From the IMG/VR virus record IMGVR_UViG_3300036770_003021, positions 1-64,000 of that record: 64,000 bases of DNA; one strand, 5' to 3'. A program made the position numbers and the translations under genes. Positions 2,918 to 40,028 of this stretch are shown piece after piece (the stretch's first letter is position 1; each line of letters starts with the position of its first letter). The DNA is from an uncultured virus (IMG/VR IMGVR_UViG_3300036770_003021). Lineage: Duplodnaviria > Heunggongvirae > Uroviricota > Caudoviricetes. The notes beneath the pieces were generated by a model. It saw nothing but the letters and a program-made list of their open reading frames with translations, made no database searches and was not told the DNA's origin.

Positions 2918-5206
2918 TTATAGAGCACAAGCGCCACTGGCACAACCAGATTCTTCTTGTACTTTTGGTTTCGCCTCAACAGACTTTGTTTCCATAGCGG
3001 TCTGTTTGTCGCCGTCATCAGTATTAGCATAATATAGATTCTTCAATCCATACTTGTATGCCAACAAGATGTCTTTAATAACAACTTCAACCGGCACCTT
3101 ATTTTTCTCGTAACGTGATGGAATATAGTACGTGTTAGTACTGATACTCATATCTGTAAACTTTTGAATAGCAGCTGCTACCTTTAGGTAACCTTCATTA
3201 CTTGGCATATCAAAAGCAAAAGTATAATTGTCTTTGTACTTATCAATATTAGGAACTACCACAGGCAAAATGTTACTCTTGCTTCCCTTGAAGCTAATAG
3301 CACTACGTGGTGGTTCAATGCCATTGGTGCTGCTCTGAATTACACTACTAGATTCAACAGGCATACAAGCTGTAAGTGTACTGTGTCTCATACCGTACTT
3401 CTTGATTTCTTCACGAAGTGTTTCCCAATCACAATGTAGTGGTTCTGTAATAAATTCATCTACATCTCGCTTATAAGTATCAATTGGCAAAATACCTTGA
3501 CTGAACTTGGTACGATCAAACTTTTCACATTTACCCAATTCTTTTGCCATTTCAACACTAGCCTTGATTAGATAGTAACTGGTCTTTTCCATCCACTTAG
3601 AAACAAAGTTAGGAGCGTTAACATCCCAGTACTTCAATTCTTCTTTAGCCAATAGAGCAGCCAAGTTACTTACGCCTACACCAAGACTACGACGCTTAGT
3701 AGCAAAATTCTTTGCAGCTGGTACGAAATATTCTTGATGATCAATCAAAGCATCCAACATTCTGACAATGATATCACAAACACTTTCCATTTCATTATCA
3801 TCCTTGATTTCCAACCAATTTAGTGCTGCTAAGACACAAACACCAATTTCACCATCTGGATCATTTACATCATAAATTGGAATTAGTGGATGATTTACTT
3901 CAAGACATAGATTGCTTGTATCTACTTGATCCAACCAACTACCGTGTTCATTTGCGTGATCAACGAACATTGTATAAATACGTCCAGTTTCAAGACGTTC
4001 TTTAGCCAATAGACCCATCAATTCACGAGCGGGTACTTTCTTCTTGAACTTAATGTTTTTGTTGGCTTCAGCCTTTTCGTACTTCTCCTTAAATCCTTCC
4101 ATACCAAAAGTATTCCACAGTGAAGGACATTCGTGATAACTAAATAGTGTTACGTCTTGATTCTTCAAGAAACGTTCAAAGATTAACTTATCCAATCCCA
4201 CACAATAGTCCAACTTACGTACACGGTTATCATCAGTACCTTGGTTATTCTTCAATACGAGAATATCTAAAATATCATAATGGAACCAAGCAAAGTTAAC
4301 AGTTGCACTACCACCACGAATGCCGTTTTGATGACAGCTCTTTACAGTGGATTCAAATGCTTTAGCGAATGGAATTGGTCCTGTATGTACAACTTCGCCA
4401 TTACGAATAGGAGCATTTGTAGCACGTAGTCTGGATAGATTCAATCCAATACCATAACGACTAGCTGTAGCAAATCCCACAGCACTATTGTTACTGAAAA
4501 TACTACGAAGATCATCGTCTACAGTAAATAGTGAACAACTAGCATAACTCTTCATTGGAGTTCTTACACCCGCCATAATAGGGGTTGGTAGATTAATCTT
4601 ATGCTTACTAAAGTAGTTGTAAGCCTTCTTGATATAATCAAGACGATTTTCTTTATAACCTTTAAAGAATGTCATTGCGATAAGCATATAAGCAAACTGT
4701 GGGGTTTCATAAATCTGTTTGGTTACACGATTTTGAACCATATACTTATCACACAACTGTTTAATACCAGCATATGTGAAATTAAAATCACGGTCGTGAC
4801 GTAAAAATTCATCTAGCTTATCAAACTCTTGTTTGGTGTACCAATTTAAAATTTCTTCGTCATATACCAAAGCATCAATATTTACTTTGACGATATCATA
4901 TAGTTTAGGAGGATTCTTACCACCCCAAACATTCTTACGTAACTGGTAATTCAATAAACGTGAAGCTACATATTGATAATTGGGTTTATCTTCAGAAATT
5001 AGATTTGCAGAAGCTTCAATCAACATTGCATGAATGTCTTTGGATGTCATACCATCGAAAAACGATAGATGAGCATTCATTGCAACTTCTTCAAAACTAA
5101 CACTTTTTATGTCTTCGGTAGCCCATTGCAAAATCTTATTGATTTTATCTGCATTGAATTTCTCGACGTTACCATTTCTTTTCTTTATAAAAATTTCTTT
5201 ATTCAT
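2918..5206 (-). CDS. nrdA: Ribonucleotide reductase class Ia alpha subunit
   Basis: N-terminal ATP cone, PTPIMAG, SCSL, SNLCLEV, TNGIEP, C-terminal CASGAC. Confidence 0.97.
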   Translation of the reverse strand: MNKEIFIKKRNGNVEKFNADKINKILQWATEDIKSVSFEEVAMNAHLSFFDGMTSKDIHAMLIEASANLISEDKPNYQYVASRLLNYQLRKNVWGGKNPPKLYDIVKVNIDALVYDEEILNWYTKQEFDKLDEFLRHDRDFNFTYAGIKQLCDKYMVQNRVTKQIYETPQFAYMLIAMTFFKGYKENRLDYIKKAYNYFSKHKINLPTPIMAGVRTPMKSYASCSLFTVDDDLRSIFSNNSAVGFATASRYGIGLNLSRLRATNAPIRNGEVVHTGPIPFAKAFESTVKSCHQNGIRGGSATVNFAWFHYDILDILVLKNNQGTDDNRVRKLDYCVGLDKLIFERFLKNQDVTLFSYHECPSLWNTFGMEGFKEKYEKAEANKNIKFKKKVPARELMGLLAKERLETGRIYTMFVDHANEHGSWLDQVDTSNLCLEVNHPLIPIYDVNDPDGEIGVCVLAALNWLEIKDDNEMESVCDIIVRMLDALIDHQEYFVPAAKNFATKRRSLGVGVSNLAALLAKEELKYWDVNAPNFVSKWMEKTSYYLIKASVEMAKELGKCEKFDRTKFSQGILPIDTYKRDVDEFITEPLHCDWETLREEIKKYGMRHSTLTACMPVESSSVIQSSTNGIEPPRSAISFKGSKSNILPVVVPNIDKYKDNYTFAFDMPSNEGYLKVAAAIQKFTDMSISTNTYYIPSRYEKNKVPVEVVIKDILLAYKYGLKNLYYANTDDGDKQTAMETKSVEAKPKVQEESGCASGACAL

Positions 5207-5307
5207 ATGGGTAAAAAATAACTATCTTTTGGATAGTCTATTGTGTGTTTAGATTATAACTTTTTAATAATTTTTTTATACGTTTTTTGCGCGTTACATA
5301 CTATAAA

Positions 5308-6690
5308 TTATTCTTCGTCATCGCTGTTATGTACATTCCACTTGGACTTTAGTGCTTTTTTGACTTGATTTTCTCCATCCATCATTTCATTTAGAATACT
5401 CATACCCTCACGGCTATTTTCTCCATAAATTTCAATGTGACCACAACCAGCGTTCATCTTACTTGGGAATGTCAAACCATCTGGTCCGAAACGATTCTTA
5501 ATTACGTGGAATCGTGCTGTATTTGCCTGTTTATCGTTAACTTTACGACTGAGCGACATAACGAAGTCAGCAGTCATAATCTTACGATAACTATCAGCAA
5601 TATTGTTGGCCTGAATGATATCTTCGTCCATAGCAGCACGATTGCTCTGTGAAGCACTCCAAATGGGAACTTGTAGTTCACCAGCTACACCACGTAACTC
5701 TTCATAGATACCACCAGCCTCACTATAACTGTTACTATTACGTTCGCTTTGTGATGGACGTAGAATATCAGCATAGTCAACAATAATCATATCTACCTTT
5801 GTACCAAGTACAGCCAATCGTTCACAATGTGCTTTTAAACTATAAGCACTAACTGTCTTGATTGGGAAGTATTTGATCTTCAACTTGCCTGGTACATCAG
5901 CAATCTTCTGTTTTACGATATCAACGTTGTTACGAATGTTTTGGAAATCAATTCCAGTAAAACAAGCATCATAACGAAGACCCACATAGTTTTCATTCAA
6001 CTCTAGAGTAAAATGAACTACATTCTTACCCTGCTTCATTGCTTCGGCACCCAACTTGGATAGTACCCAACTCTTACCACTACCAGCACAAGCTGTAATA
6101 ATACCAAGTTCGCCGGCCGCCAATCCACCATCCATAATGGTATCAATTTCAGTCCAATTGGTCTTGACACAATTGCGACTCATTACACTCATACGTTTTT
6201 CAACGTCTTCAGAGTAATCGTGACCGATATTACGTTCCATACCAGCTTTCATTGCGTGGTCAACTACGTTTTTAATCTTTTCGTATTGACCAAGTGCCAA
6301 TAGATCAGCACTTTCAATAATAGCGTTCTTTAGCTTTTGATTCTTACAGAATTCCAAAAACTGTTCTTTGACAAATTTCAAATCACTATCACTAACCTTT
6401 TGATATACCAATTTGAGATTGTCTACTATGCTTCGTTTTAGAAGTTCATCATTAATCTCATCCAATTTAATTTTGAATACTGTTAATGTTGGAAGATCTT
6501 TATACTCATTGAAATATTTAATACTTTCTTTTACTACCCACTTATTTGCATCACTTTCAAAGAAGTCTACTTCAATAATATCGTGAATTCTTTCAATAAA
6601 TGAACGATCAGATATCAAGCACGAAATACACTTGATTTGGAAGTCACGGCCATATTTTGTTAATGAATCAATTGCTTTTTTGTTTTCCAT
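5308..6690 (-). CDS. gp41: DnaB-like replicative helicase (T4 gp41-like)
   Basis: Walker A ACAGSGKS, FTLEL, IIVDYADIL, SASQSNR, KNRFG. Confidence 0.93.
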   Translation of the reverse strand: MENKKAIDSLTKYGRDFQIKCISCLISDRSFIERIHDIIEVDFFESDANKWVVKESIKYFNEYKDLPTLTVFKIKLDEINDELLKRSIVDNLKLVYQKVSDSDLKFVKEQFLEFCKNQKLKNAIIESADLLALGQYEKIKNVVDHAMKAGMERNIGHDYSEDVEKRMSVMSRNCVKTNWTEIDTIMDGGLAAGELGIITACAGSGKSWVLSKLGAEAMKQGKNVVHFTLELNENYVGLRYDACFTGIDFQNIRNNVDIVKQKIADVPGKLKIKYFPIKTVSAYSLKAHCERLAVLGTKVDMIIVDYADILRPSQSERNSNSYSEAGGIYEELRGVAGELQVPIWSASQSNRAAMDEDIIQANNIADSYRKIMTADFVMSLSRKVNDKQANTARFHVIKNRFGPDGLTFPSKMNAGCGHIEIYGENSREGMSILNEMMDGENQVKKALKSKWNVHNSDDEE

Positions 6691-6751: not shown

Positions 6752-7824
6752 TTATTCGATGAAACTGTTTAGTTTGCCAAAACACTCATTCAACCAAATG
6801 TGATAATTTGGGATATTATTCCACATTTTGTCTTCTGTAATCAACTTCGTAAAAGTCATTTTATCTATTTTACGAATAGGAGTCTTTATTATTTCTTCTA
6901 TACGTAATTGTGTAAATGACTGAACCTGCGTATCACTCAATTGCATCAAAGAGTGATTTCTTTCTAGTAACAACTTATTATCCAATACAGTATCGTATAT
7001 TTTATATTTACCTCTGTTGTTTTCAGAGTAATTATAAATTTCTTGTAATCCATATTGTTGACCGTCTGATAAAAATGGAAATGCTTTTACTACACGTTTT
7101 AAACCCACACCATCTAGTCCAGGTATGTTGTCGCTAACGTCACCTTCCATAACTCTGTATAAAACAAAGTTATTGCAAGTAATTCCATATTCATCCACTA
7201 TTTCTTTACAACCAAAAATTTTCTTTTTTACAGGACTCCAGATTTTAATCTTGTCACTTGCTAGTTGAAGAAAATCTTTATCAGTAGACATAATTGTTAC
7301 ATTACTGTCCTTAAAAGTTTCTTTAGCTAAATAAGCAATTGTATCGTCTGCTTCTATTTGATCAATTGCCATAACTGTTACAGGCAATGTGTCCAAATAA
7401 TTTACAGTACGAATCAATTCTTTTTTGAAGTTAACAGATTCAATCTGCGATGAAGATAATTCTTCGTAATTACGGTTGAGACGAATATCAGTCTTTCTAC
7501 CGTTTTTGTAACCTGGATATATCTTTCTACGTTTCTGACTACCACCTTTACCATCAAATACAATAATAACTCGGGTAGGAGAAATCAATTTAATTGCATA
7601 TCCAATGCTCTTCAAGAAACCAGCAATACCCCCGGTATGTAATCCGTCTTCATTGAGTGAAGGAATGGCCATAAAACTACGAATGTAAGTATTCACTACA
7701 ATCCGTCAACCAAAAGGACATCACTATTAAGTGATTTTTTAAGTCCTCCGGTGACGGAATCGCTTTCTATGTTTTGAAATAAAGAAAATAACTTCTTCAT
7801 TTCTTTGTTGTCAAAGTTGCTCAT
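6752..7824 (-). CDS. rnh: 5'-3' exonuclease / RNase H (FEN/PolA N-terminal family), split into 7696..7824 (42 aa) and 6752..7696 by a 5-nt gap
   Basis: Upstream piece ends DVLLVDGL*; downstream piece continues NTYIRSF...VFDGKGG...YKNGR...EADDTIAY...STDKDFLQL...GDVSDNIPG. Confidence 0.85.
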
Positions 7825-8743
7825 TTAATAATTTTTTAATGTATATATTTTTGTCTTTACATTGTTCCCAATCGTGTTGCCATATAACTTTTATTATATA
7901 CCCATTCGATTCAGCAATCAACATTTTATTTTTATCTTTTTCCCATATTTTAATAACTTCATCGGACGATGTAAAAAATCTAGGATCTCTGTGCCAATAA
8001 GTACCATTAAATTCTATTAATAAATTTTTTTCTTTTACAAACACATCGTATGGCTTCCCCCCAACAACATATTCATCTTGAATTGAATATCCTTGTTCTT
8101 TTAACAATCTAATTACTTCCTGCTGTCCTTTAGATTTAAAAATTGGTTTATGAATTCCACTTTTCCACTGATTTTTAGTAATTAACGATAATTTGTGTTT
8201 TGTTTCAGTAGTATGTCTAAAATTAGATCGCTTGGTTTTCTTTGGTTTTCTTAATTTTAACTTATGTTCTTCTGTTAATGACTTTCCAAGTTGAGATTGA
8301 GACATTTTTTGTTTAGTATCTTCACTGGGTTTATACCAGTCTCTACTCTTTACTCGTTTTATTTTACTCTCCATTGTTTGACACTTTGGTAAACAATGTT
8401 TAATCATTAAATCCCTACATCTAGACTTAGCGGACTGATTATTTTTGTAATATTTTTTAATACCAATCGACATTTTTTGTCTTCTTTCTGAAGAAATAAA
8501 ATAACTATCTTTGTTTCTTTTTTGATGAGCAGCTTTAGACGTTCTAACAGCACTTATTTTTTTCAAATAAGTTTCACCATATTTATTATATAAATATTTT
8601 TTTATTTTTTCCCCAGTTTTGCTACCAATTTTATTCAGTTTAAATAAAGAAGTAAATCCACATATTGATTCATCTTTTATAAAGATTTGATATAATCGTT
8701 CAGATCGGTCTTCAAAAAAGAGTTTTTCCGCATTGTTATCCAT
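7811..8743 (-). mobile_element. Free-standing homing endonuclease (NUMOD3-like repeats plus Vsr/EDxHD-like nuclease)
   Basis: Repeats SEDTKQKMS, TEEHKLKL, HTTETKHKLS; C-terminal YDVFV..LLIEFNGTYWH..D..K..IWQHDW. Confidence 0.8.
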
Positions 8744-8773
8744 ACTAATAAATAGTAGGCAATGCGGAAAAAC
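8722..8773 (-). promoter_or_regulatory. Hairpin enclosing the endonuclease start codon and a late-promoter motif
   Basis: Perfect 14-bp inverted repeat gtttttccgcattg (8722-8735) / caatgcggaaaaac (8760-8773); ATG (8743) and TATTTATT (8747-8754) lie in the loop. Confidence 0.75.
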
Positions 8774-8787
8774 ATCCTATCAACGTA

Positions 8788-9933
8788 TTATTCTTCGTTG
8801 CCTGCAGTTTCTTCGTGTGTATCCACAACAGCATCCTCAATAATTTGACTATTGGGATCTTTGTATTTCATAATTACAGCGTCACAAATCTTCAGGTAAA
8901 TTTCTTCACCCAATTGTTTGTCACTCTGCATTACACTTACAAAGTCTTTGGATTGGAACTTCCATTCGTTTCCATCGTTCTTTTTATAAGTATAATAAGC
9001 ACCACCCTGTTTAATTAGATTTTGTTCTTTTAGAACTTTAATCCAACTGCCATAGTCAGCAATTCCACTATCAAAATAGATATCAAAATTGGCCTGACGT
9101 TGAGGTGGTCCCATACGATTCTTGATAACAACTGCCTTACACTCGTTTCCGATGACTTCTTCACCCTTCTTGAGTTTACCGGCATTATTCAAACGAACAC
9201 GTACACTACAATGATATGCTAAAGCCTTACCACCACTTACTACGTACTTATCACCAAATGCCATAGCATTTAAATTCTGACGTAGTTGATTAGTAAATAC
9301 AGTCAATACTTTCTGTTTACCAATCATAGTAGTAATCTTACGCATTGCCTTACTGATAATAATAGATTTACCCGTTGCAAATCCATCCTTACCGTGATCA
9401 CTTTCCAATTCAACTTTAGTAGATGCTGCTGCTACAGAATCTACAATGATTGTAAGAATACGATCTTTGTTGCTCTTACGAACAATCGCGATCATCTTCT
9501 CCATCTGAGCAAAAATATCTTCAACGGTTTCACATTGAACATATAGTAGCTTAGACAAATCTACACCAAGACTCTTCCAGAACTCAGGCGCAGCTGCGTT
9601 TTCAGTATCAATTACTACAGCGACTCCACCCTTCTTCTGTGTATCTGCGACAACGTGTGCCGACAATAGACTCTTACCAGTACCTTCAAGTCCGTTGAAT
9701 TCAACCATCTTACCAACTGGTAGACCGCCGTGTGGACGATTACTAATTGCAAGATCCAAAATAGAAGAGCCAGTACTAATCCAATCAGTAATTTCTGAAG
9801 GATTATCTTGTTCATCTAGGAAATGTGCAATTTTACCACCATCTTTATTTGCTTTGTTAAGCTCATTCGCCAACATTTCGATTAATTCGTCACGTTGACC
9901 CGATGTATCTTTTGTAACACTTTTCTTTGCCAT
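8788..9933 (-). CDS. uvsX: RecA/UvsX-like recombinase
   Basis: ISTGS..LD, Walker A GLEGTGKS, IDTENA, IIVDSVAA, NQLR, GGKALAY, KNRMGPP; likely start MAKKS. Confidence 0.93.
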   Translation of the reverse strand: MAKKSVTKDTSGQRDELIEMLANELNKANKDGGKIAHFLDEQDNPSEITDWISTGSSILDLAISNRPHGGLPVGKMVEFNGLEGTGKSLLSAHVVADTQKKGGVAVVIDTENAAAPEFWKSLGVDLSKLLYVQCETVEDIFAQMEKMIAIVRKSNKDRILTIIVDSVAAASTKVELESDHGKDGFATGKSIIISKAMRKITTMIGKQKVLTVFTNQLRQNLNAMAFGDKYVVSGGKALAYHCSVRVRLNNAGKLKKGEEVIGNECKAVVIKNRMGPPQRQANFDIYFDSGIADYGSWIKVLKEQNLIKQGGAYYTYKKNDGNEWKFQSKDFVSVMQSDKQLGEEIYLKICDAVIMKYKDPNSQIIEDAVVDTHEETAGNEE

Positions 9934-9949
9934 AACGTATATAACTAGA

Positions 9950-9981
9950 AAGCCGGTGGGGTATAAAAACTCCACCGGCTT
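9950..9981. terminator. Stem-loop / terminator between gp32 and uvsX
   Basis: aagccggtgg...ccaccggctt inverted repeat flanked by A/T runs. Confidence 0.65.
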
Positions 9982-9992
9982 ATTTTTATTTT

Positions 9993-10829
9993 TTAGGAGT
10001 TAAACAAGTCATCAAATGCTTGTTCTACACTGTCTTTACCCTTTGCTTTGGCAGCAGTTGGTGAAGCTGGTGCCTTAGCTGTAGCAGTTGCGGTTACTGC
10101 TGGTGATGTTGAAAACGGAGCTTCATCATCATCTCCACTAGGAGTAGGTTCAGCTGCAACTTCAGTTGCGGCTGATTCTGGATTCAACCACTTATCCATA
10201 ACTTCCTTCAAGTCATCATAGGATAGTTCTTCAAACAAATCCAAGATGTTTACTTGTGCCTTTAGAGCATCCAAGAGTTGGGTATTCTTTGGATCTACGG
10301 CGACACTTACGTTTGGCTTAACACGAATGCTGGTTTCTGGGAAACTAGCTCCGCCTTCAGCTGTCTTGAATTCTACAACGATATCACGACCATTGGTTAG
10401 ATCGGTAATATCACCGAAATCAGGATCACTGATGATTGAAAGAAGTTCTTGATAAACTTGCTTTCCAAATCCCCAGAACTTGACACCTTCTCCTTCTTCA
10501 CCACGAACAATGACTGGTACGAAAGTACGCATCTTTGGCTCCATCTTACGACCCATCTGCCAATCTTCCTTTGAACCAGTCTTCTTCAGACGGTTAGCAA
10601 ATTCAACGATTGGATCTGGACGACCAAAACTATCAGGAGATAGATAAGTCTTGTTATTGATGTTGTAATGAAACTTTAGTTCGATAAACGGATTCTCAGG
10701 TACGTACTTATATGGTACGATACGAACTACTTGTTTACCTGGCTTTGGTTTCCAAATCAAGTTGGATTTTTGATTTGTGTTTGAAAGGGAGTTCAAACGA
10801 CTCTTTAGTTTACTTAGATCTAATGCCAT
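9993..10829 (-). CDS. gp32: Single-stranded DNA binding protein (T4 gp32-like)
   Basis: WKPKPG..VRIVP, PF.EL.FHY, GVKFWGFGK.VY, GDITD..GRD, acidic tail ending FDDLFNS. Confidence 0.85.
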   Translation of the reverse strand: MALDLSKLKSRLNSLSNTNQKSNLIWKPKPGKQVVRIVPYKYVPENPFIELKFHYNINNKTYLSPDSFGRPDPIVEFANRLKKTGSKEDWQMGRKMEPKMRTFVPVIVRGEEGEGVKFWGFGKQVYQELLSIISDPDFGDITDLTNGRDIVVEFKTAEGGASFPETSIRVKPNVSVAVDPKNTQLLDALKAQVNILDLFEELSYDDLKEVMDKWLNPESAATEVAAEPTPSGDDDEAPFSTSPAVTATATAKAPASPTAAKAKGKDSVEQAFDDLFNS

Positions 10830-34289: not shown

Positions 34290-37200
34290 TTATTTATTTA
34301 TCAATCGATTTATTGTTATTTGTTGTTCATCAACTATCTGCTTCAATTCTTTAACACCCTGTATCAATACAGCTGTCAATTTACTATAATTTATACCAGA
34401 TATATTACCCAACTCATCATAACTAACAAATTCAGGATATATCTTCACAACCTCTTCAGCTATCAAACCAATACTAAATTCATTGTTGTTCTTATACCTA
34501 AATGTCACCGGATTCAATAACACAATCTTGTCCAATTGCGGCGGCAATAAAGGTACAATATCCGTTTTAGTATCTTCACTAGACGTTTCTATCAATGTAG
34601 TAGCACTAACAGTTCCAGTAACCGTTAATGTAGTACCACTCACACTCAAAAAATTAACACTCTGTAACGTAGTAAGACCAGTAGTTTTTACCAAATAATT
34701 AGGCTGATCAGTAAAACTACCACCACTAATTCCACTGGTACCACTAGGAGCACTAATACCACTAGTGCCACTCGTACCACTGCTACCACTAGTTCCACTT
34801 ATACCACTACTTCCACTACTAGCACTAGCACCTCCGCCAGCACTTACACCACTTGTTCCACTTGTACCAACAGTTCCACTACTACCACTGGTTCCGCTTG
34901 TGCCACTCGTACCACTGCTACCACTTGTTCCACTGGTTCCATTTCGACCACTTGTGCCACTGCTACCACTTGTTCCGCTCGTTCCACTTGTGCCACTTGT
35001 TCCGTTTGTTCCACTTGTTCCGTTTTGACCGCTACTACCACTTGTTCCACTTGTACCGCTACTACCACTTGTACCACTACTACCACTTGTGGCACTATTA
35101 CCACTGCTACCACTATCACGACTAAATCCGCTTGTACCACTGCTACCACTAGTACCACTTGTTCCGCTTGTTCCGCTTGTTCCGCTTGTGCCACTTGTAC
35201 CACTGGTTCCATTTCTACCACTGCTACCACTAGTACCACTGCTACCACTGCTACCACTAGTTCCACTTGTTCCGCTAGTGCCACTCGTTCCATTTGTTCC
35301 GCTTGTTCCGTTTTGACCACTGCTACCACTTGTTCCACTTGTACCGCTACTACCACTTGTACCACTACTACCACTTGTGGCACTATTACCACTGCTACCA
35401 CTATCACGACTAAATCCGCTTGTACCACTGCTACCACTAGTACCACTGGTACCACTTGTTCCGCTTGTACCACTTGTGCCACTTGATCCACTTGACCCAC
35501 TTATACCAGACGATCCGCTACTACCACTGCTACCACTTGATCCACTTGTTCCACTTGTGCCACTAGTACCATTTGTACCATTTGACCCACTTATACCACT
35601 TGTTCCACTCGTTCCACTGGTACCATTTGATCCACTCGTACCACTAGTGCCACTGGTACCACTGCTCCCACTTGATCCACTTGTTCCGCTTGTGCCACTA
35701 GTACCATTTGACCCACTTGATCCACTTGACCCACTTGATCCACTTGACCCACTTGACCCACTTGATCCACTTACACCAGACGATCCGCTACTACCACTAG
35801 TACCGCTTGTGCCACTAGTACCATTTGACCCACTTATACCACTTGTGCCACTTGATCCATTACTGCCGCTTGTTCCACTTGTTCCGCTTGTGCCACTAGT
35901 ACCACTTGATCCGCTTGTACCACTTGTGCCACTTGATCCGCTTGTACCACTTGTGCCACTGCTACCACTGGTACCATTAGATCCACTTGTACCGCTTGTG
36001 CCACTAGTACCATTTGTACCACTTGTACCGTTAGATCCACTTGATCCGCTAGTACCAGACGATCCGCTACTACCACTTGTACCGTTTGATCCGCTTATAC
36101 CACTTGTGCCACTTGTACCACTGGTGCCGTTTGTTCCACTGCTACCACTTATACCAGACGATCCGCTACTACCACTTGTACCGTTGGATCCACTTGTGCC
36201 ACTTGTACCGTTAGATCCGCTTGTACCACTTGATCCACTTGATCCGCTTGTGCCACTTGATCCACTTGATCCACTTGATCCACTTGACCCACTGGTGCCG
36301 TTCGATCCGCTTGTACCACTTGTGCCACTTGATCCACTTGACCCACTTATACCAGACGATCCGCTACTACCACTAGTACCGCTTGTGCCACTAGTACCAC
36401 TAGTACCACTTGTACCGTTAGATCCACTTGTGCCACTAGTACCACTGCTTCCACTTGTGCCACTGCTTCCATTTGATCCACTTGTACCACTACTACCACT
36501 TGTACCACTTGTACCACTACTGCCACTTGTACCGTTGGATCCACTTGTGCCACTAGTACCACTGCTTCCACTTGATCCACTTGATTCACTTACGCCACTG
36601 GTGCCGCTTGTTCCATTTGTACCACTGCTGCCACTTATACCAGAAGATCCACTACTACCACTTGTGCCACTTGTGCCATTAGATCCACTTGTACCGCTTG
36701 ATCCATTTGACCCACTTGTACCACTTGATCCACTTGACCCACTTGTACCATTTGATCCACTTGACCCACTTGTACCACTTGTGCCGCTTGTACCACTTGT
36801 GCCATTAGATCCACTCGTTCCACTAGTACCGCTTGTGCCATTAGATCCGCTCGTACCACTAGTACCACTAGTGCCGCTTGTGCCGCTTGTGCCATTTGAT
36901 CCACTAGTACCACTTGATCCACTACTACCACTTGTACCGCTTGTGCCATTAGATCCACTTGTACCGCTTGTGCCACTAGTACCGCTTGTACCACTTGTGC
37001 CGTTTGATCCGCTTGTACCACTTGTGCCGTTTGATCCGCTTGTTCCACTTATACCAGATGATCCACTTGTACCGCTTGTGCCACTAGTACCACTTGTGCC
37101 ACTAGTACCACTAGTACCGCTTGTTCCACTACTACCGCTTGTACCGTTTGACCCACTTGTTCCACTTGTACCATTAGATCCGCTTGTTCCAGATGATCCA

Positions 37201-40028
37201 CTTGTTCCACTAGTACCACTTGTTCCACTACTACCAGATGTACCACTTGTACCGTTAGTACCGTTAGTACCATTAGTACCATTAGTACCATTTGATCCGC
37301 TTGTGCCATTTGATCCACTACTACCACTTGTTCCACTACTACCGCTTGTGCCACTCGTTCCACTACTACCACTTATACCAGAAGATCCACTGCTACCACT
37401 TGTACCGCTTGTGCCATTAGATCCACTTGTTCCAGATGATCCACTACTACCGCTTGTGCCACTACTACCGCTTGTACCATTAGATCCACTTGTACCACTT
37501 GTGCCACTTGTGCCACTGGTACCATTTGATCCACTACTACCGCTTGTACCATTAGATCCGCTAGTACCAGATGATCCACTACTACCGCTTGATCCGCTTG
37601 TACCAGATGATCCACTTGATCCACTTAATCCACTTGAACCACTTGAACCACTAGTACCGTTTGTACCGCTTGTACCACTAGTACCGTTTGATCCACTAGT
37701 ACCACTAGTGCCACTTGATCCGCTTGAACCACTTGAACCACTTGATCCACTTGATCCACTTGTACCGCTAGTACCACTTGATCCGCTTGTACCACTTGTG
37801 CCACTGCTACCACTGGTACCGTTAGATCCGCTAGTACCACTTGTTCCATTAGATCCACTTGTACCGGATGATCCACTTGTTCCGCTAGTACCAGACGATC
37901 CACTTGATCCGCTAGTACCGGACGATCCACTTGTTCCATTCGTTCCATTGGATCCGCTGGTACCAGATGATCCACTTGATCCGCTAGTACCAGATGATCC
38001 ACTTGAACCGCTTAATCCACTTGATCCACTTGATCCGCTCGATCCACTTGATCCACTGGTACCACTAGTACCGCTTGTACCACTAGTACCACTTGTGCCA
38101 TTAGATCCACTTGTGCCGTTTGATCCGCTAGTACCACTTGTTCCATTTGATCCACTTGTTCCACTACTACCACTTGTACCACTTGTTCCACTACTACCAC
38201 TTGTACCGCTTGTACCACTCGTTCCACTTGTACCATTTGATCCACTAGTGCCATTTGTGCCGTTTGATCCGCTTGTACCATTTGATCCACTAGTACCACT
38301 TGATCCACTTGATCCACTTGTACCGCTAGTACCACTGGTACCACTTGTTCCACTTGTGCCGCTCGTACCACTAGTGCCGTTTGTGCCATTAGATCCACTT
38401 GTTCCGCTACTGCCAGACGATCCGCTAGTACCAGATGAACCACTTGAACCACTTAACCCACTTGAACCACTTGAACCACTTGATCCGCTAGTACCGCTTG
38501 TGCCACTTGTTCCGCTAGTACCACTGGTACCATTTGTACCACTGGTACCATTTGTTCCACTTGATCCACTTGATCCACTTGATCCACTTGATCCACTTGA
38601 TCCACTTGATCCACTGGTACCACTCGTACCACTTGTACCGCTAGTGCCGCTTGTACCACTAGTGCCATTTGTACCATTAGTGCCGTTTGTACCATTTGAT
38701 CCACTTGACCCACTTGATCCACTTGATCCACTAGTACCGCTTGTACCACTTGTGCCGCTTGTACCACTTGTGCCGCTTGTACCACTAGTACCGCTTGTAC
38801 CACTTGTGCCGCTTGTACCACTGGTGCCATTTGTCCCATTACTACCGGATGATCCACTATTACCAGATGATCCACTTGTACCGCTTGTACCAGATGTACC
38901 ACTTGTTCCACTAGTACCACTTGTGCCACTGGTACCATTTGTGCCGCTTGTGCCGTTTGAACCACTGCTTCCACTTATACCAGATGTGCCACTTGTGCCA
39001 CTAGATCCGCTCGATCCACTTGACCCACTGGTACCACTCGTACCACTAGTACCACTGGTGCCACTGGATCCGCTTGTACCACTTGTACCACTTGATCCAC
39101 TTGTACCACTTGATCCGCTGCTACCACTTGTACCACTGCTACCACTTGTTCCACTTGTGCCACTAGATCCGCTTGTACCACTTGTACCACTGCTACCACT
39201 AGTACCGTTTGTGCCACTTGTACCACTGGTACCACTGGTACCACTAGTACCACTTGTTCCGCTACTACCACTTGTTCCGCTGCTTCCACTGGTGCCTGAT
39301 CTACCGCTTGATCCTCTTGTACCACTTGTGCCGGTTGTACCGCTTGTAGTACTTGTACCACTTGATCCGCTTGATCCATCTAATAAACCGCTACTGCCGC
39401 TTGTACCACTGCTTCCATTTTCTCCACTGGTTCCACTGGTTCCTATATCGCCACTTTGACCGCTACTACCACCCTCACCATTTGTACCGCTTGTGCCTTG
39501 ACTACCACTGGTACCTGAAGATGTGCTTGTACCGCTTGTGCCGCTTGTATTGCTTGTTCCGCTTGATCCAGCTGATCCTTTTTCTCCGCTGCTGCCACTA
39601 CTACCACTAGTGCCTGTGCCTGAAGTACCACTGGTGCTGATATTACCGCTTACACCTATGATGTATCCGCATGCATCAAACGAAAAAGTTATAGTTGCGG
39701 TATTATCGTTATTAAGTACTATTGTTTCTGGTATTAATTGATTGAAATTTTCGTCGTATGTTTGAATTAATACTAGATCTGAGTTTAAATTATGATCAAA
39801 TACCCAAGTTTTTGATTTTTGATCGCATGGTATTTGTTTAGTAGCAACATTGTTGAAAAACTGAGAACTGGTTCGGCAATAAATAATTTTACGTAATTCG
39901 TCGATTATTTTAAGAAACAGCTCTGTAGTAGGATCTTTAAAAGTCGCTGTTAATTTTTTATAATCATACAGAGCATTATCCAATTTTATTGGAGAAACCT
40001 CGCATGGATCTTTCTTTAATGTTGACAT
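34290..40028 (-). CDS. Giant Gly-X-Ser/Asn triplet-repeat fibre with C-terminal intramolecular chaperone (peptidase S74-like)
   Basis: About 1,640 aa of GTS/GSS/GSN/GTN triplets; C-terminal TSS..TK..I...LNPVTFRY...IGLIAEEV...INYSKLTAVLIQGVKEL; N-terminal W.F.HNLN...IQTYD. Confidence 0.8.
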   Translation of the reverse strand: MSTLKKDPCEVSPIKLDNALYDYKKLTATFKDPTTELFLKIIDELRKIIYCRTSSQFFNNVATKQIPCDQKSKTWVFDHNLNSDLVLIQTYDENFNQLIPETIVLNNDNTATITFSFDACGYIIGVSGNISTSGTSGTGTSGSSGSSGEKGSAGSSGTSNTSGTSGTSTSSGTSGSQGTSGTNGEGGSSGQSGDIGTSGTSGENGSSGTSGSSGLLDGSSGSSGTSTTSGTTGTSGTRGSSGRSGTSGSSGTSGSSGTSGTSGTSGTSGTSGTNGTSGSSGTSGTSGSSGTSGTSGSSGTSGSSGSSGTSGSSGTSGTSGSSGTSGTSGTSGTSGSSGSSGSSGTSGTSGISGSSGSNGTSGTNGTSGTSGTSGTSGTSGTSGTSGSSGNSGSSGSNGTNGTSGTSGTSGTSGTSGTSGTSGTSGTSGTSGTSGSSGSSGSSGSNGTNGTNGTNGTSGTSGTSGTSGTSGTSGSSGSSGSSGSSGSSGSSGTNGTSGTNGTSGTSGTSGTSGTSGSSGSSGSSGLSGSSGSSGTSGSSGSSGTSGSNGTNGTSGTSGTSGTSGTSGTSGTSGSSGSSGTSGSNGTSGSNGTNGTSGSNGTSGTSGTSGTSGSSGTSGTSGSSGTSGSNGTSGTSGSNGTSGSNGTSGTSGTSGTSGTSGSSGSSGSSGSSGLSGSSGSSGTSGSSGSSGTSGSNGTNGTSGSSGTSGSSGSSGTSGTSGSSGTSGSNGTSGTSGSNGTSGSSGTSGTSGSSGTSGTSGSSGSSGSSGSSGSSGTSGTSGSNGTSGTSGTNGTSGSSGSSGLSGSSGSSGTSGSSGSSGSSGTSGSNGTSGSSGSNGTSGTSGTSGTSGSNGTSGSSGTSGSSGSSGTSGSNGTSGTSGSSGSSGISGSSGTSGTSGSSGTSGSSGSNGTSGSNGTNGTNGTNGTNGTSGTSGSSGTSGTSGTSGSSGTSGSNGTSGTSGSNGTSGSSGTSGTSGTSGTSGTSGTSGTSGSSGISGTSGSNGTSGTSGSNGTSGTSGTSGTSGTSGSNGTSGTSGSSGSSGTSGSNGTSGTSGTSGTSGTSGSNGTSGTSGTSGSNGTSGTSGTSGTSGSSGSNGTSGSSGSSGTSGSNGSSGTSGSNGTSGTSGSSGSSGISGSSGTNGTSGTSGVSESSGSSGSSGTSGTSGSNGTSGSSGTSGTSGSSGTSGSNGSSGTSGSSGTSGTSGSNGTSGTSGTSGTSGTSGSSGSSGISGSSGSSGTSGTSGSNGTSGSSGSSGSSGSSGTSGSSGSSGTSGSNGTSGTSGSNGTSGSSGSSGISGSSGTNGTSGTSGTSGISGSNGTSGSSGSSGTSGSSGSNGTSGTNGTSGTSGTSGSNGTSGSSGTSGTSGSSGTSGTSGSSGTSGTSGTSGTSGSNGSSGTSGISGSNGTSGTSGTSGSSGSSGVSGSSGSSGSSGSSGSSGSSGSNGTSGTSGTSGSSGSSGTSGTSGTSGSNGTSGTSGTSGISGSNGTNGTSGTSGTSGSSGSSGSSGSSGISGSSGSSGTSGTSGTSGTSGTSGSSGTSGFSRDSGSSGNSATSGSSGTSGSSGTSGTSGSSGQNGTSGTNGTSGTSGTSGTSGSSGSSGTSGSSGRNGTSGTSGTSGTSGTSGTSGTSGSSGTSGFSRDSGSSGNSATSGSSGTSGSSGTSGTSGSSGQNGTSGTNGTSGTSGTSGTSGSSGTSGRNGTSGTSGSSGTSGTSGTSGSSGTVGTSGTSGVSAGGGASASSGSSGISGTSGSSGTSGTSGISAPSGTSGISGGSFTDQPNYLVKTTGLTTLQSVNFLSVSGTTLTVTGTVSATTLIETSSEDTKTDIVPLLPPQLDKIVLLNPVTFRYKNNNEFSIGLIAEEVVKIYPEFVSYDELGNISGINYSKLTAVLIQGVKELKQIVDEQQITINRLINK
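34720..39640. repeat. ~4.9-kb 9-nt-period coding repeat, including a 288-bp-period duplication (35021-35159 / 35309-35447)
   Basis: Units such as ccacttgta/ccacttgat/ccactagta on the plus strand; GFSRDSGSSGNSATSG occurs twice. Confidence 0.95.

What the first reader, a model, noticed from the sequence alone, without database searches (positions are those of the whole stretch)
7691..7824. 5-nt stop-containing gap inside the exonuclease active-site motif: candidate mini translational bypass beside a homing endonuclease
Seen: the mRNA reads GUU GAC GGA UUG [UAGUG] AAU ACU UAC AUU CGU. A 42-aa ORF (7824..7696) ends ...DVLLVDGL-stop, and removing exactly 5 nt restores VDGLNTYIR, the first acidic motif of FEN/5'-3' exonucleases. 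The tracked GTG-start ORF lacks this Asp. A long imperfect stem-loop (7702-7758; UCCGUCA..GGAGGAC / GUCCUU..UGACGGA) ends right at the gap, and a free-standing endonuclease gene overlaps the start. Known: T4 gene 60 is decoded by ribosomal bypassing over a gap that begins with UAG after about 46 codons, and the gap protects against the neighbouring MobA endonuclease. Inference: tRNA-Leu could hop from UUG to GUG (2/3 match, +5 nt) while the insertion blocks self-cleavage. Alternatives are UAGUG stop-start coupling giving a two-chain enzyme, a -1 shift adding two residues, or a dead gene.
Basis: partly seen in the sequence, partly recalled or inferred. Interest (0 to 1): 0.9.

Follow-up and report, generated by a model that had tools for sequence, protein, structure and literature searches.

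The report
Tiny ribosome-hop gap in phage exonuclease
A phage replication nuclease gene is broken inside its active-site motif by a five-letter insert holding a stop codon that travels with a selfish endonuclease gene, and many related phages carry a six-letter version (leucine codon, stop, matching leucine codon, behind a conserved RNA hairpin), which is the layout expected if ribosomes hop over the stop, so far seen only in engineered genes.

Summary
On the minus strand a 42-codon ORF ends ...VDGL-TAG, and the 314-codon FEN body starts at the overlapping GTG. Intact sister alleles read VDGLNTYIR. The 5-nt TAGTG occurs in 36 contigs and in an independent DNA run.

It is the right-hand edge of a mobile cassette made of a Vsr/I-Bth0305I-like homing endonuclease, a foreign copy of FEN codons 1-42, and the gap. 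All 23 endonuclease carriers have the gap. None of 48 intact alleles has the endonuclease.

The window's form is a 5-nt variant of a wider site. Six related contigs, and 45 viral contigs in 12 FEN clusters (29-65% identity), carry an in-frame 6-nt insert:
- It reads Leu codon, stop, Leu codon, and all three stops are used.
- The middle codon is always a stop, even when any codon was allowed.
- The flanking codons always share their first two bases.
- No start codon follows, and the body ORF stays intact (dN/dS 0.03-0.24).
- A covarying hairpin ends at the take-off codon.

Best reading: a short ribosomal hop ("stop-hop") that keeps FEN canonical while the insert disrupts an endonuclease target. 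For the 5-nt form, GUG restart remains a serious rival. Nothing is shown at the protein level. My literature searches found no prior description.

The parts
7699..7824 (-). FEN N-part: 42 codons, MSNFDNKEMKKLFSLFQNIESDSVTGGLKKSLNSDVLLVDGL. Carries the first catalytic Asp (VDG). It is the cassette's own version of the gene's 5' end.
   Evidence: 57 of 126 nt and 17 of 42 aa differ from the isogenic intact allele L002. Open in all gap alleles seen.
7699..7701 (-). Proposed take-off codon TTG (Leu), in the P site when TAG is in the A site.
   Evidence: It is TTG in all 35 other TAGTG contigs and CTG in L426. It is paired in the outer helix of the hairpin.
7694..7698 (-). The 5-nt gap TAGTG: stop TAG at 7696-7698, and GTG at 7694-7696 as either the proposed landing triplet or a restart codon.
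   Evidence: Absent from 48 intact alleles. Invariant wherever the cassette-type upstream sequence occurs (39 of 39).
6752..7693 (-). FEN C-part: NTYIRSF... to the stop, 313 codons plus stop. Contains 5_3_exonuc_N from profile position 10 and the 5_3_exonuc SAM-fold domain.
   Evidence: Intact in all 23 unique gap haplotypes of this group. It is the only PF02739 locus in the 134-kb record.
7698..7763 (-). mRNA hairpin. Core arms are 7743-7758 (UCCGUCACCGGAGGAC) and 7702-7719 (GUCCUUUUGGUUGACGGA). The outer helix includes the take-off codon and the U of UAG.
   Evidence: z -5.4. Compensatory changes in the 6-nt sister alleles. The same placement is seen in 34 of 34 unique junctions.
7811..8743 (-). 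Free-standing homing endonuclease candidate, 310 aa: NUMOD3-type repeats plus a C-terminal Vsr/I-Bth0305I-like nuclease domain. Its last 14 nt overlap the FEN N-part start.
   Evidence: Pfam PF18741, below cut-off. PHROG 'homing endonuclease'. Homologs carry PF18741 and PF07460. AF2 model pLDDT 88.9; best PDB folds are Vsr 1cw0/1vsr and I-Bth0305I 3r3p.
8744..8787 (-). Cassette leader between the RecA stop and the endonuclease start. This is the left edge of the insert.
   Evidence: Alignment of gap and intact alleles.
8788..9975 (-). RecA/UvsX recombinase gene, the left homology flank of the cassette.
   Evidence: Pfam RecA 1.5e-53. 0 of 1188 nt differ from intact-allele locus L002.
5308..6690 (-). 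DnaB/gp41-like helicase gene downstream. Conserved synteny is RecA-[HEG]-FEN-helicase.

Best explanation
The TAGTG insert is a short coding gap of a kind widespread in the FEN (5'-3' exonuclease) genes of T4-like uncultured phages.

Proposed decoding, all inferred:
- The ribosome translates 42 codons and reaches Leu codon UUG in the P site with UAG in the A site.
- The 3' arm of a strong hairpin, which covers the Asp-Gly codons and the take-off codon, is then held unpaired inside the ribosome. Its partner strand is already outside.
- While the stop is decoded slowly, peptidyl-tRNA-Leu lets go and re-zipping of the hairpin pulls the mRNA forward.
- The tRNA re-pairs 5 nt downstream on GUG (positions 2 and 3 match). 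In the sister alleles it re-pairs 6 nt downstream on a matching Leu codon.
- Decoding resumes at AAU and yields a normal single-chain FEN reading ...VDGLNTYIR....

Proposed role at the DNA level, also inferred: the insert, together with the recoded 5' exon, disrupts the conserved active-site-coding sequence that the neighbouring Vsr-like homing endonuclease would cut. Carriers would then be immune while the cassette invades intact alleles.

Shown here: the anatomy, the cassette borders, the linkage with the endonuclease, the family-wide Leu-stop-Leu rule, hairpin covariation, and purifying selection on both halves.
For: Cassette:
- WIN versus L002 differ at 0/1188 nt in recA, 57/126 in the N-part and 8/942 in the C-part. 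The right border lies exactly at the gap.
- On the C-part tree the gap label needs at least 10 changes.
- The endonuclease is found in 23 of 36 TAGTG contigs, in 0 of 48 intact alleles and in 0 of 6 six-nt alleles.
- The endonuclease fold matches Vsr and I-Bth0305I.

Hop, from comparative evidence:
- Six contigs of the same phage group carry TTG TAG TTA or CTC TAA CTT in frame.
- A degenerate pattern found 45 viral contigs, all reading DG-L(F)-stop-L-NT.
- Allowing any middle codon returned the same 45 contigs, all with stops.
- In metagenome contigs, 38 of 38 FEN-context hits had stops and same-family flanking codons. Of the 22 chance hits, 21 had a sense codon and 11 had mixed flanking codons.
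- A stop-only (3-nt) insert occurred in no FEN gene.
- Stop usage over the 34 unique junctions (32 six-nt and 2 five-nt) is TAG 20, TGA 8, TAA 6. Flanking-codon families over the 32 six-nt junctions are CT/CT 29 and TT/TT 3.
- Landing codons are mostly CTT, CTC, CTA or TTA, which are not start codons.
- In 41 of 41 complete loci the body ORF is open for 314-323 codons, with dN/dS 0.03-0.24.
- The N and C parts co-diverge (65-91% nt identity) in lineages without an endonuclease, while the stop changes identity.

Hairpin:
- All 34 junctions have z of -2 or lower, and at least 5 of the 6 Asp-Gly nucleotides are paired to upstream sequence.
- In alignment A3, 96.6% of cells pair, 5 pairs show double changes including the wobble base of the take-off codon, and 0 of 500 shuffles reach the observed value.

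Other:
- Canonical spacing without two extra residues holds in intact relatives and in cultured phages.
- The genome has no suppressor tRNA.
- Literature (passages read): 5' mRNA pairing drives forward bypassing in gene 60, and stop-hops are known only from constructs. The gene 60 gap blocks MobA and persists after endonuclease loss.
Against: - There is no protein, ribosome or cleavage data.
- In the window's own 5-nt form the landing triplet GUG matches only 2 of 3 positions. It is also a good restart codon overlapping the stop. TAGTG is conserved in both 5-nt variants (TTG and CTG take-off), which restart explains as well as a hop does.
- The matched Leu codons could partly reflect how the insert arose (microhomology), and the lineages are not independent samples.
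- Stop-bearing alleles are a minority among intact relatives: about 9 short forms among the 120 best clusters, 5 of which are of another kind. In the cassette-borne clusters the C-parts are recent recipients, so their low dN/dS says little about life with the gap.
- Intact alleles of this group also keep a hairpin.
- FEN may be dispensable if the host provides a 5' nuclease.
- Many stop-bearing genes have no endonuclease next to them, so the immunity role is an analogy and was not tested.
- RNA evidence is weak. One RNA-library contig holds the 5 nt with only about 22 nt on one side.
Confidence: 0.5

Rival explanations
1. Stop-restart. Ribosomes terminate at UAG and re-initiate at the overlapping GUG. 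This gives a 42-aa peptide carrying strand beta-1 and the first Asp, plus a 314-aa body, which assemble into a two-chain FEN or leave a crippled enzyme. The gap still serves as the endonuclease-immunity mark.
For: - UAGUG is a classic overlapping stop-start.
- It is invariant in 36 contigs and is kept when the take-off codon is CTG (L426).
- The endonuclease-linked and most abundant allele is the 5-nt form, the only form that creates a start codon.
- T4-type endonuclease insertions are known to split genes into interacting halves (Manning and Atkins preprint, section read).
Against: - The 6-nt sister alleles of the same cassette family, and the 45 viral plus 38 metagenome sites, have no start codon at the junction yet keep both halves under selection. 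A different mechanism must already exist in this lineage.
- The GUG lies in a G+C-rich, paired stretch, whereas the phage's real starts are A/T-rich. Only 9 of 91 starts have an SD-like motif, against a 6% background.
- From general knowledge of the FEN fold, beta-1 is a central strand, so a 42-aa fragment would have to insert into the core.
Confidence: 0.25
2. Null or decaying allele. The insert simply inactivates FEN. The allele persists because the endonuclease drives it into co-infecting genomes, because it is immune to cutting, and because a host 5' nuclease covers the loss.
For: - The cassette is very mobile, with at least 10 label changes on the tree.
- The N-part is nearly identical across diverged bodies, so many bodies met the gap only recently.
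- T4 RNase H is non-essential (recalled, not checked here).
- The Manning and Atkins preprint considers the MobA element possibly mildly deleterious.
Against: - 0 of 23 unique gap haplotypes of this group, and 0 of 41 complete loci elsewhere, show a second lesion.
- Close B-B pairs show 25 synonymous versus 5 non-synonymous differences.
- Stop-bearing lineages without any endonuclease have co-diverged to 65-75% nt identity with dN/dS 0.13-0.24, while the stop mutated only among stop codons.
- The hairpin and the take-off codon covary.
Confidence: 0.12
3. Other recoding. For the 5-nt form, a +2 shift (UUG to GUA, adding one Val) or a -1 shift (adding Val-Val). For the 6-nt forms, stop-codon readthrough adding two residues.
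For: - All of these reach the right frame.
- GUA also pairs 2 of 3 with a Leu anticodon.
- UGA C and UAG C are weak termination contexts (recalled).
Against: - There is no slippery heptamer. A TGA in the target frame 9 nt upstream of the GTG leaves only GGA-UUG as a shift site.
- UAA, the least leaky stop, is used in 6 of 34 unique junctions.
- A stop alone never occurs without the second Leu codon.
- All intact relatives keep the D-G-x-N-x-x-I-R spacing.
- The genome has no suppressor tRNA.
Confidence: 0.06
4. Rival on purpose only. The Leu-stop-Leu site is mainly a dosage or timing control for a nuclease that is harmful in excess, or a way to make a separate clamp-binding N-peptide. Homing endonucleases merely sit in the RecA-FEN spacer.
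For: - Many stop-bearing genes have RecA directly abutting FEN, with no endonuclease (L321, 326, 333, 337, 338, 339, 343, 347, 349, 362).
- The site persists through long co-divergence.
- Hops in constructs are inefficient (review passages).
Against: - In two separate clusters the site travels with an endonuclease of a different family: Vsr-like here, HNH in L329/L331/L350/L363. There the N-part is 97-99% identical across bodies that are 72-76% identical.
- Every endonuclease carrier has the gap.
- Most relatives do without the stop.
Confidence: 0.2

Closest known systems
Phage T4 gene 60 translational bypass with the MobA homing endonuclease cassette (Manning and Atkins, bioRxiv 10.1101/2022.08.31.505936: abstract and section 12 read. 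Wills, Parsawar and Atkins, bioRxiv 10.1101/2024.12.09.627546: abstract and passages read)
   Same: - A stop codon lies directly 3' of the take-off codon, about 40-46 codons into the ORF.
[quoted passage not shown] - The gap and a recoded 5' exon are carried with a free-standing homing endonuclease.
- The gap is present in every endonuclease carrier and persists after endonuclease loss.
- The endonuclease can be of different families.
   Different: - The gap is 5-6 nt, not 50.
- No A-site or take-off stem-loop forms inside the gap, and there is no SD-like landing aid. No KKYK-type nascent signal was identified.
- Take-off is at Leu, not Gly GGA.
- The hairpin ends at the take-off codon rather than 9 nt before it.
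- The gene is FEN, not topoisomerase.
- The endonuclease is Vsr-like (HNH in another cluster), not MobA.
- No sequence homology was tested or seen.
- Decoding here is unproven.
[quoted passage not shown] 1987 and O'Connor et al. 1989, as cited in Atkins et al. 2016, PMC5009743; passages read, originals not read)
   Same: The 6-nt sister alleles have exactly this layout: Leu codon, stop, synonymous Leu codon. The window's form is the same minus one base.
   Different: - These sites are natural, conserved, and preceded by a covarying hairpin.
- The review states that no natural in-frame stop-hop was known in 2016.
- Efficiency here is unknown; the constructs gave low levels.
Magnusiomyces capitatus mitochondrial 'byp' elements, and the likely short bypass in the Streptomyces phage Hau3 terminase (both as described in PMC5009743; passages read)
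   Same: Short inserts are rendered harmless by translational bypass. Two-of-three pairing at landing is tolerated in the mitochondrial cases.
   Different: - The byps are 27-55 nt (length recalled, not from the passages read), lie in mitochondria, and use an unused A-site codon.
[quoted passage not shown]
- The Hau3 case hinges on a rare UUA codon and an SD sequence.
Vsr-like free-standing homing endonucleases of 'fractured genes' (Dassa et al. 2009, PMC2677866, passages read) and I-Bth0305I (PDB 3r3p; Taylor et al. 2011, PMC3239194, listing only)
   Same: - NUMOD-type DNA-binding repeats plus a Vsr-fold nuclease.
- A free-standing gene between or within replication genes of T4-like phages.
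- Its 3' end overlaps the start of the downstream gene part.
   Different: There the damage to the host gene is repaired by split inteins or introns. Here no intein or intron is present, and the proposed repair happens on the ribosome.

Membership tests
Programmed translational bypassing / hopping | Take-off and landing codons are cognate to the same peptidyl-tRNA. | tested here: inconclusive
   Window: UUG to GUG pairs at 2 of 3 positions. In 32 of 32 unique 6-nt junctions the flanking codons share their first two bases (CT/CT 29, TT/TT 3), against 11 of 22 in chance hits.
Programmed translational bypassing / hopping | A slow-to-decode A-site codon (stop) lies directly after the take-off codon. 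| tested here: met
   UAG follows UUG. A stop is present in 45 of 45 viral hits and 38 of 38 metagenome FEN hits even with any codon allowed.
Programmed translational bypassing / hopping | A stimulatory mRNA structure with evolutionary support. | tested here: met
   A hairpin abuts the take-off codon in 34 of 34 junctions. Covariation: 5 pairs with double changes, 0 of 500 shuffles reach the observed value. That it stimulates a hop is inferred.
Programmed translational bypassing / hopping | One polypeptide is made from the two ORFs without the gap-encoded residues. | not testable with these tools
   Needs a reporter and mass spectrometry. Only indirect support exists: both ORFs are conserved and no start codon follows in the 6-nt forms.
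T4 gene 60 / MobA cassette (homologous family) | Inserted in the topoisomerase II large-subunit gene, with a MobA-type endonuclease and a 50-nt gap. | tested here: not met
   The host gene is FEN, the endonuclease has a Vsr/I-Bth0305I fold, and the gap is 5 nt. This is an analogue, not a member.
FEN / 5'-3' exonuclease (Pfam PF02739 + PF01367) | An N-terminal resolvase-like domain with the first acidic motif, and a SAM-fold domain. | tested here: met
   The C-part matches PF02739 positions 10-164 (3.4e-27) and PF01367, the latter below the cut-off. The N-part supplies LLVDGL, as in intact alleles.
Vsr-like / I-Bth0305I homing endonucleases | A Vsr-type nuclease fold with conserved acidic and His residues, plus NUMOD DNA-binding motifs. 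| tested here: met
   Foldseek: 1cw0_A E 1.9e-4, 3r3p_A E 3.1e-4 (TMt 0.73). Invariant E224, D233, E244, H251, D253, D270 and K273. PF07460 and PF18741 in homologs.
Vsr-like / I-Bth0305I homing endonucleases | Site-specific cleavage of the endonuclease-less allele, followed by homing. | not testable with these tools
   Only population evidence: presence/absence polymorphism in isogenic genomes and the scattered tree distribution.
Termination-reinitiation (overlapping stop-start) | A start codon overlaps or adjoins the stop. | tested here: met
   UAGUG is present in the window and in L426. It is not met in any 6-nt allele; their landing codons are CTN or TTA.
-1 programmed frameshifting | A slippery X XXY YYZ heptamer with a downstream stimulator. 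| tested here: not met
   There is no heptamer. The target frame is closed by a TGA 9 nt upstream of the GTG.

The most novel reading that the evidence does not exclude
A whole natural class of hairpin-driven 6-nt (and here 5-nt) ribosomal hops exists in the FEN genes of uncultured T4-like phages, in at least 12 diverged lineages from fresh and marine waters. Peptidyl-tRNA-Leu jumps over a stop onto a matching Leu codon. A 2-codon DNA insert in the catalytic motif therefore costs no residues, and phages use it as immunity against several families of homing endonucleases. Recoding would then be a general answer to selfish nucleases, and this would be the first natural stop-hop.
Probability: 0.5. 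Interest if true: 0.93.

Novelty: new variant of a known kind. Interest (0 to 1): 0.88.

Why it matters
- Programmed bypassing rests on very few natural cases: T4 gene 60 and its homologues, and the yeast mitochondrial byps. [quoted passage not shown] It also says no natural in-frame stop-hop was known (passages).
- If these sites are decoded as proposed, they give dozens of natural sequence variants of a minimal bypass: 9 nt, one hairpin, one tRNA. With these, the idea that re-pairing of exiting mRNA pulls the ribosome forward can be tested far more simply than with gene 60.
- They would extend the arms race between homing endonucleases and their hosts from introns, inteins and split genes to the ribosome.
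- They would explain FEN genes that gene callers now truncate, as in the calls starting MNDDG or MNTFIR.

Tried and rejected
- The 15-mer scan GTTGACGGNTTGTAG gave mostly chance hits and was replaced by longer or degenerate patterns.
- A -1 frameshift is rejected. There is no slippery site, and a TGA closes the target frame 9 nt upstream.
- TAG reassignment or suppression is rejected. TAG is followed in frame by TGA in the window. All three stops are used across the family. The 134-kb genome has 18 tRNAs and none is a suppressor. TAG ends 4 of 94 long ORFs.
- A second candidate at window ~38977 (GTA TAA GTG) is a false alarm. It lies in an off-frame of a 1912-aa Gly/Ser/Thr-repeat ORF.
- The genome-contig scan gave 5 hits, none in a FEN context.
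- No cultured carrier was found. The nearest GenBank phages (Microcystis Mel-JY01 at 42-43%, Flavobacterium immuto at 35-40%) have intact genes.
- RNA evidence is thin. RNA-library contig X15 holds the 5 nt but with only about 22 nt on one side. X16 and X17 turned out to be the intact allele. All were contigs, not reads, so this says nothing on expression level or RNA-level removal.
- There is no second FEN-domain gene in the held 134 kb, but the record is only about 48% complete.
- The earlier-findings index had nothing on this locus or on hops.
- A two-chain complex prediction was not run, because halves of one fold tend to pass regardless.
- Not found in print. Searches gave no paper describing a stop or hop site in a phage FEN gene. 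Subscription journals are mostly outside that library.
Full report
**What is in the window**

Read on the minus strand, the region holds a T4-like replication block:
- a gp32-like gene (9993-10829)
- RecA/UvsX (8788-9975)
- a 310-aa ORF (7811-8743)
- a 42-codon ORF (7824-7696)
- a 314-codon ORF from GTG (7696-6752)
- a DnaB/gp41-like helicase (5308-6690)

The mRNA reads GTT GAC GGA TTG TAG TG AAT ACT TAC ATT CGT. The 314-aa product matches Pfam 5_3_exonuc_N only from profile position 10. The 42-aa ORF ends LLVDGL, which is the missing first acidic motif. The hairpin arms lie at 7743-7758 and 7702-7719, with z -5.4.

**The gap is real and polymorphic**

A protein-guided scan of viral contigs returned 80 loci with 77-100% identical FEN bodies. 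At the junction they fall into three classes:
- 48 loci are intact and read ...LLVDGLNTYIR.
- 29 loci carry the same TTG TAG TG AAT as the window.
- 3 loci carry TTG TAG TTA AAT, an in-frame stop followed by a second Leu codon.

A scan for the cassette-type upstream sequence found 39 contigs. All carried a gap: 35 TAGTG and 4 TAGTTA. A DNA contig from another study spans the site with the 5 nt. The record is a 134-kb IMG/VR virus contig with a single FEN-domain locus.

**It is the edge of a mobile cassette**

The window and locus L002 are isogenic apart from the insert:

| Region | nt differences |
|---|---|
| recA | 0 of 1188 |
| FEN body | 8 of 942 |
| 42 N-terminal codons | 57 of 126 (25 of 42 residues identical) |

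The window also holds the endonuclease gene and a leader. The alignment shows that downstream of the gap every locus has its own lineage's sequence, so the right border of the cassette is the gap itself.

The endonuclease is present in 18 of the 29 TAGTG loci and in 4 of 6 further contigs. With the window, that is 23 of 36. It is in none of the 48 intact alleles and none of the 6-nt alleles. On a tree of the FEN bodies the TAGTG label needs 14 changes, at least 10 of them forced by well-supported branches.

Characterisation of the endonuclease:
- It has 53 relatives carrying PF18741 and NUMOD3 (PF07460).
- An AlphaFold model built on 31 sequences has pLDDT 88.9.
- The model's C-terminal domain is closest to E. 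coli Vsr (1cw0, 1vsr) and to the homing endonuclease I-Bth0305I (3r3p).
- This is the Vsr-like family of Dassa et al. 2009 (passages).

**The 5-nt gap is one variant of a wider site**

A second protein-guided scan found two more alleles in the same phage group: L260 with GGC CTC TAA CTT AAC and L318 with GGA TTG TAG TTA. In L260 the take-off and landing codons have changed family together and the stop is a different one.

I then scanned with degenerate patterns built on the Asp-Gly and Asn-Thr codons:
- GAYGGN YTN TRR YTN AAYACNTWYAT returned 45 viral contigs, all reading DG-L-stop-L-NT(F/Y)I. One of them reads F-stop-L.
- With any middle codon allowed, the same 45 contigs came back, all with stops.
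- In the far larger metagenome collection the any-codon pattern gave 60 hits. 38 were in FEN context, all with stops and with flanking codons sharing their first two bases.
- The other 22 metagenome hits were chance matches and act as an internal control. 21 had sense middle codons and 11 had mixed flanking codons.
- A stop without the second Leu codon occurs in no FEN gene (2 hits, both unrelated).
- A 5-nt pattern found only the 35 known contigs plus L426, which has CTG TAG TG AAT.

**The stop-bearing genes look functional**

- In 41 of 41 complete loci an ATG-started N-part of 31-48 codons is followed, after the stop, by an open frame of 314-323 codons.
- The 35 unique bodies form 12 clusters that share only 29-65% identity.
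- Pairwise dN/dS among stop-bearing bodies is 0.03-0.24.

Two modes of inheritance appear:
- In the cluster with an HNH endonuclease upstream (L329, L331, L350, L363), N-parts are 97-99% identical while bodies are 72-76% identical. This is a second cassette.
- In lineages without any endonuclease (L321, L326, L333, L337, L338, L362; L349/L355), the N and C parts have diverged in step (64-91% nt identity for both). Meanwhile the stop changed among TAG, TAA and TGA and the Leu codons changed synonymously.

Landing codons are mostly CTT, CTC, CTA or TTA, so a restart cannot explain these genes. TAA is used in 6 of the 34 unique junctions, and the stop-only form is absent. Both points argue against simple readthrough.

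Intact relatives, including Microcystis phage Mel-JY01 and Flavobacterium phage immuto, keep the spacing D-G-x-N-x-F-I-R.

In the window's own group, all 23 unique gap haplotypes are intact. Close pairs show 25 synonymous against 5 non-synonymous differences. Because the cassette moves often, this last point is weak.

**The hairpin**

- All 34 unique junction windows fold better than shuffles (z of -2 or lower; 32 at -3 or lower).
- In all 34, at least 5 of the 6 Asp-Gly nucleotides pair with upstream sequence.
- In a 13-sequence alignment of one super-clade, 96.6% of cells pair and 5 pairs show changes on both sides.
- One of those pairs involves the wobble base of the take-off codon (AU 7, GC 3, CG 2).
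- None of 500 shuffles reached the observed values, and slid controls pair at 25-61%.
- The window's form and its 6-nt sisters show the same with compensatory changes.

Against specificity, intact alleles of the window's group also have a covarying hairpin. It ends 9-24 nt before the Leu codon. More distant intact genes have none. I cannot explain the hairpin in intact alleles.

**Mechanism proposed**

With the take-off Leu codon in the P site and a stop in the A site, the 3' arm of the hairpin is inside the ribosome and its partner is outside. Re-zipping would pull the mRNA forward. The peptidyl-tRNA would then re-pair on the next matching codon, 6 nt on, and decoding would resume.

This follows the forward-driver idea for the 5' stem-loop of gene 60 (Wills et al. 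preprint, passages). It also follows the stop-hops of Weiss et al., as cited in the 2016 review.

In the window the landing triplet is GUG, so only positions 2 and 3 match. The form looks like TTG TAG TTG minus one T. Because TAGTG is also an overlapping stop-start, restart is a real rival for this allele. Against restart, the GUG lies in paired, G+C-rich sequence, whereas this phage's starts are A/T-rich. Only 9 of 91 starts have an SD-like motif, against a 6% background.

The immunity role is inferred from three things: the one-way linkage with endonucleases, the position of the insert in the most conserved coding DNA, and the MobA precedent.

**What is known, and novelty**

The closest system is the gene 60/MobA cassette. 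It is the same in logic but differs in gap length, signals, gene and endonuclease, so this site is not a member of that family.

The layout of the 6-nt forms equals the synthetic stop-hop. The 2016 review states that no natural case was known. My searches found no description of such a site in a FEN gene. The library lacks most subscription journals.

I rate it a new variant of a known kind.

**Verdict**

My estimates:

| Reading | Probability |
|---|---|
| Family-level stop-hop reading | about 0.65 |
| Window's 5-nt form decoded by a hop | about 0.5 |
| Window's 5-nt form decoded by restart | about 0.25 |
| Null allele | about 0.12 |

Everything about decoding and cleavage remains to be shown at the bench.

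Noticed in passing
L053:4007-6766: The gp41/DnaB-like helicase gene is cut at GSGK|C...SHN|S by a split intein. A 241-aa Vsr-like free-standing endonuclease gene (4885-5610) lies between the halves. This is a 'fractured gene' as in Dassa et al. 2009. L069 and L022 are also interrupted near residue 204-223.
   Followed up: partly
L025:63-3000: The RecA match stops at residue 246, and a stretch 38% identical to the endonuclease lies at 1696-1890. The recombinase gene is probably interrupted too.
   Followed up: no
L329, L331, L350, L363 (about 790-1424 in each, oriented so that the FEN gene reads forward): An HNH endonuclease gene sits between uvsX and FEN. The N-part plus CTT TAG CTT is 97-99% identical across FEN bodies that are only 72-76% identical. 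This is a second, unrelated mobile cassette carrying the same kind of site.
   Followed up: partly
L002, L026, L064, L069, L074 and others, about 60-110 nt into the FEN gene: Intact alleles keep a strong covarying hairpin (z -3.8 to -7.6) that ends 9 nt or more before the Leu codon. Its purpose is unexplained.
   Followed up: partly
Proteins P0014, P0028, P0071, P0110, P0081: Five gene calls of FEN relatives begin exactly one codon before the catalytic Asp (VDGLNTF or MDGLNTF). This hints at another kind of interruption just upstream. Their DNA could not be seen.
   Followed up: no
G000:C1:124693-124768 (outside the window): ARAGORN calls a tRNA-?(Glu|Arg) with a four-letter anticodon CTCT and an 8-nt loop. 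It lies inside an 18-tRNA cluster at 113.8-124.9 kb. The only Leu tRNA has anticodon UAG.
   Followed up: no
window 34290-40028 (-): A 1912-aa ORF made almost wholly of Gly-Ser/Thr triplet repeats (collagen-like), with long spurious ORFs in its other frames.
   Followed up: no
L024, L028, L033, L053, L055 (spacer between recA and FEN); L066/L067: TAGTG alleles without the endonuclease carry a ~100-nt spacer with an inverted repeat instead. L066 and L067 have a 740-nt insert that starts like the endonuclease gene and then turns unrelated.
   Followed up: no
L027:2861-3010: An intact allele whose N-part is cassette-like (MSNFDNKEM...DSVTGG) but whose last codons are native, with no gap. It is either the donor lineage of the cassette's 5' exon or a recombinant that lost the gap. 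No significant hairpin (z 0.1).
   Followed up: partly
L345 (contig ending 3300037492_000422): The only junction with Phe-stop-Leu (TTC TAA TTA). No in-frame ATG was found for its N-part.
   Followed up: no
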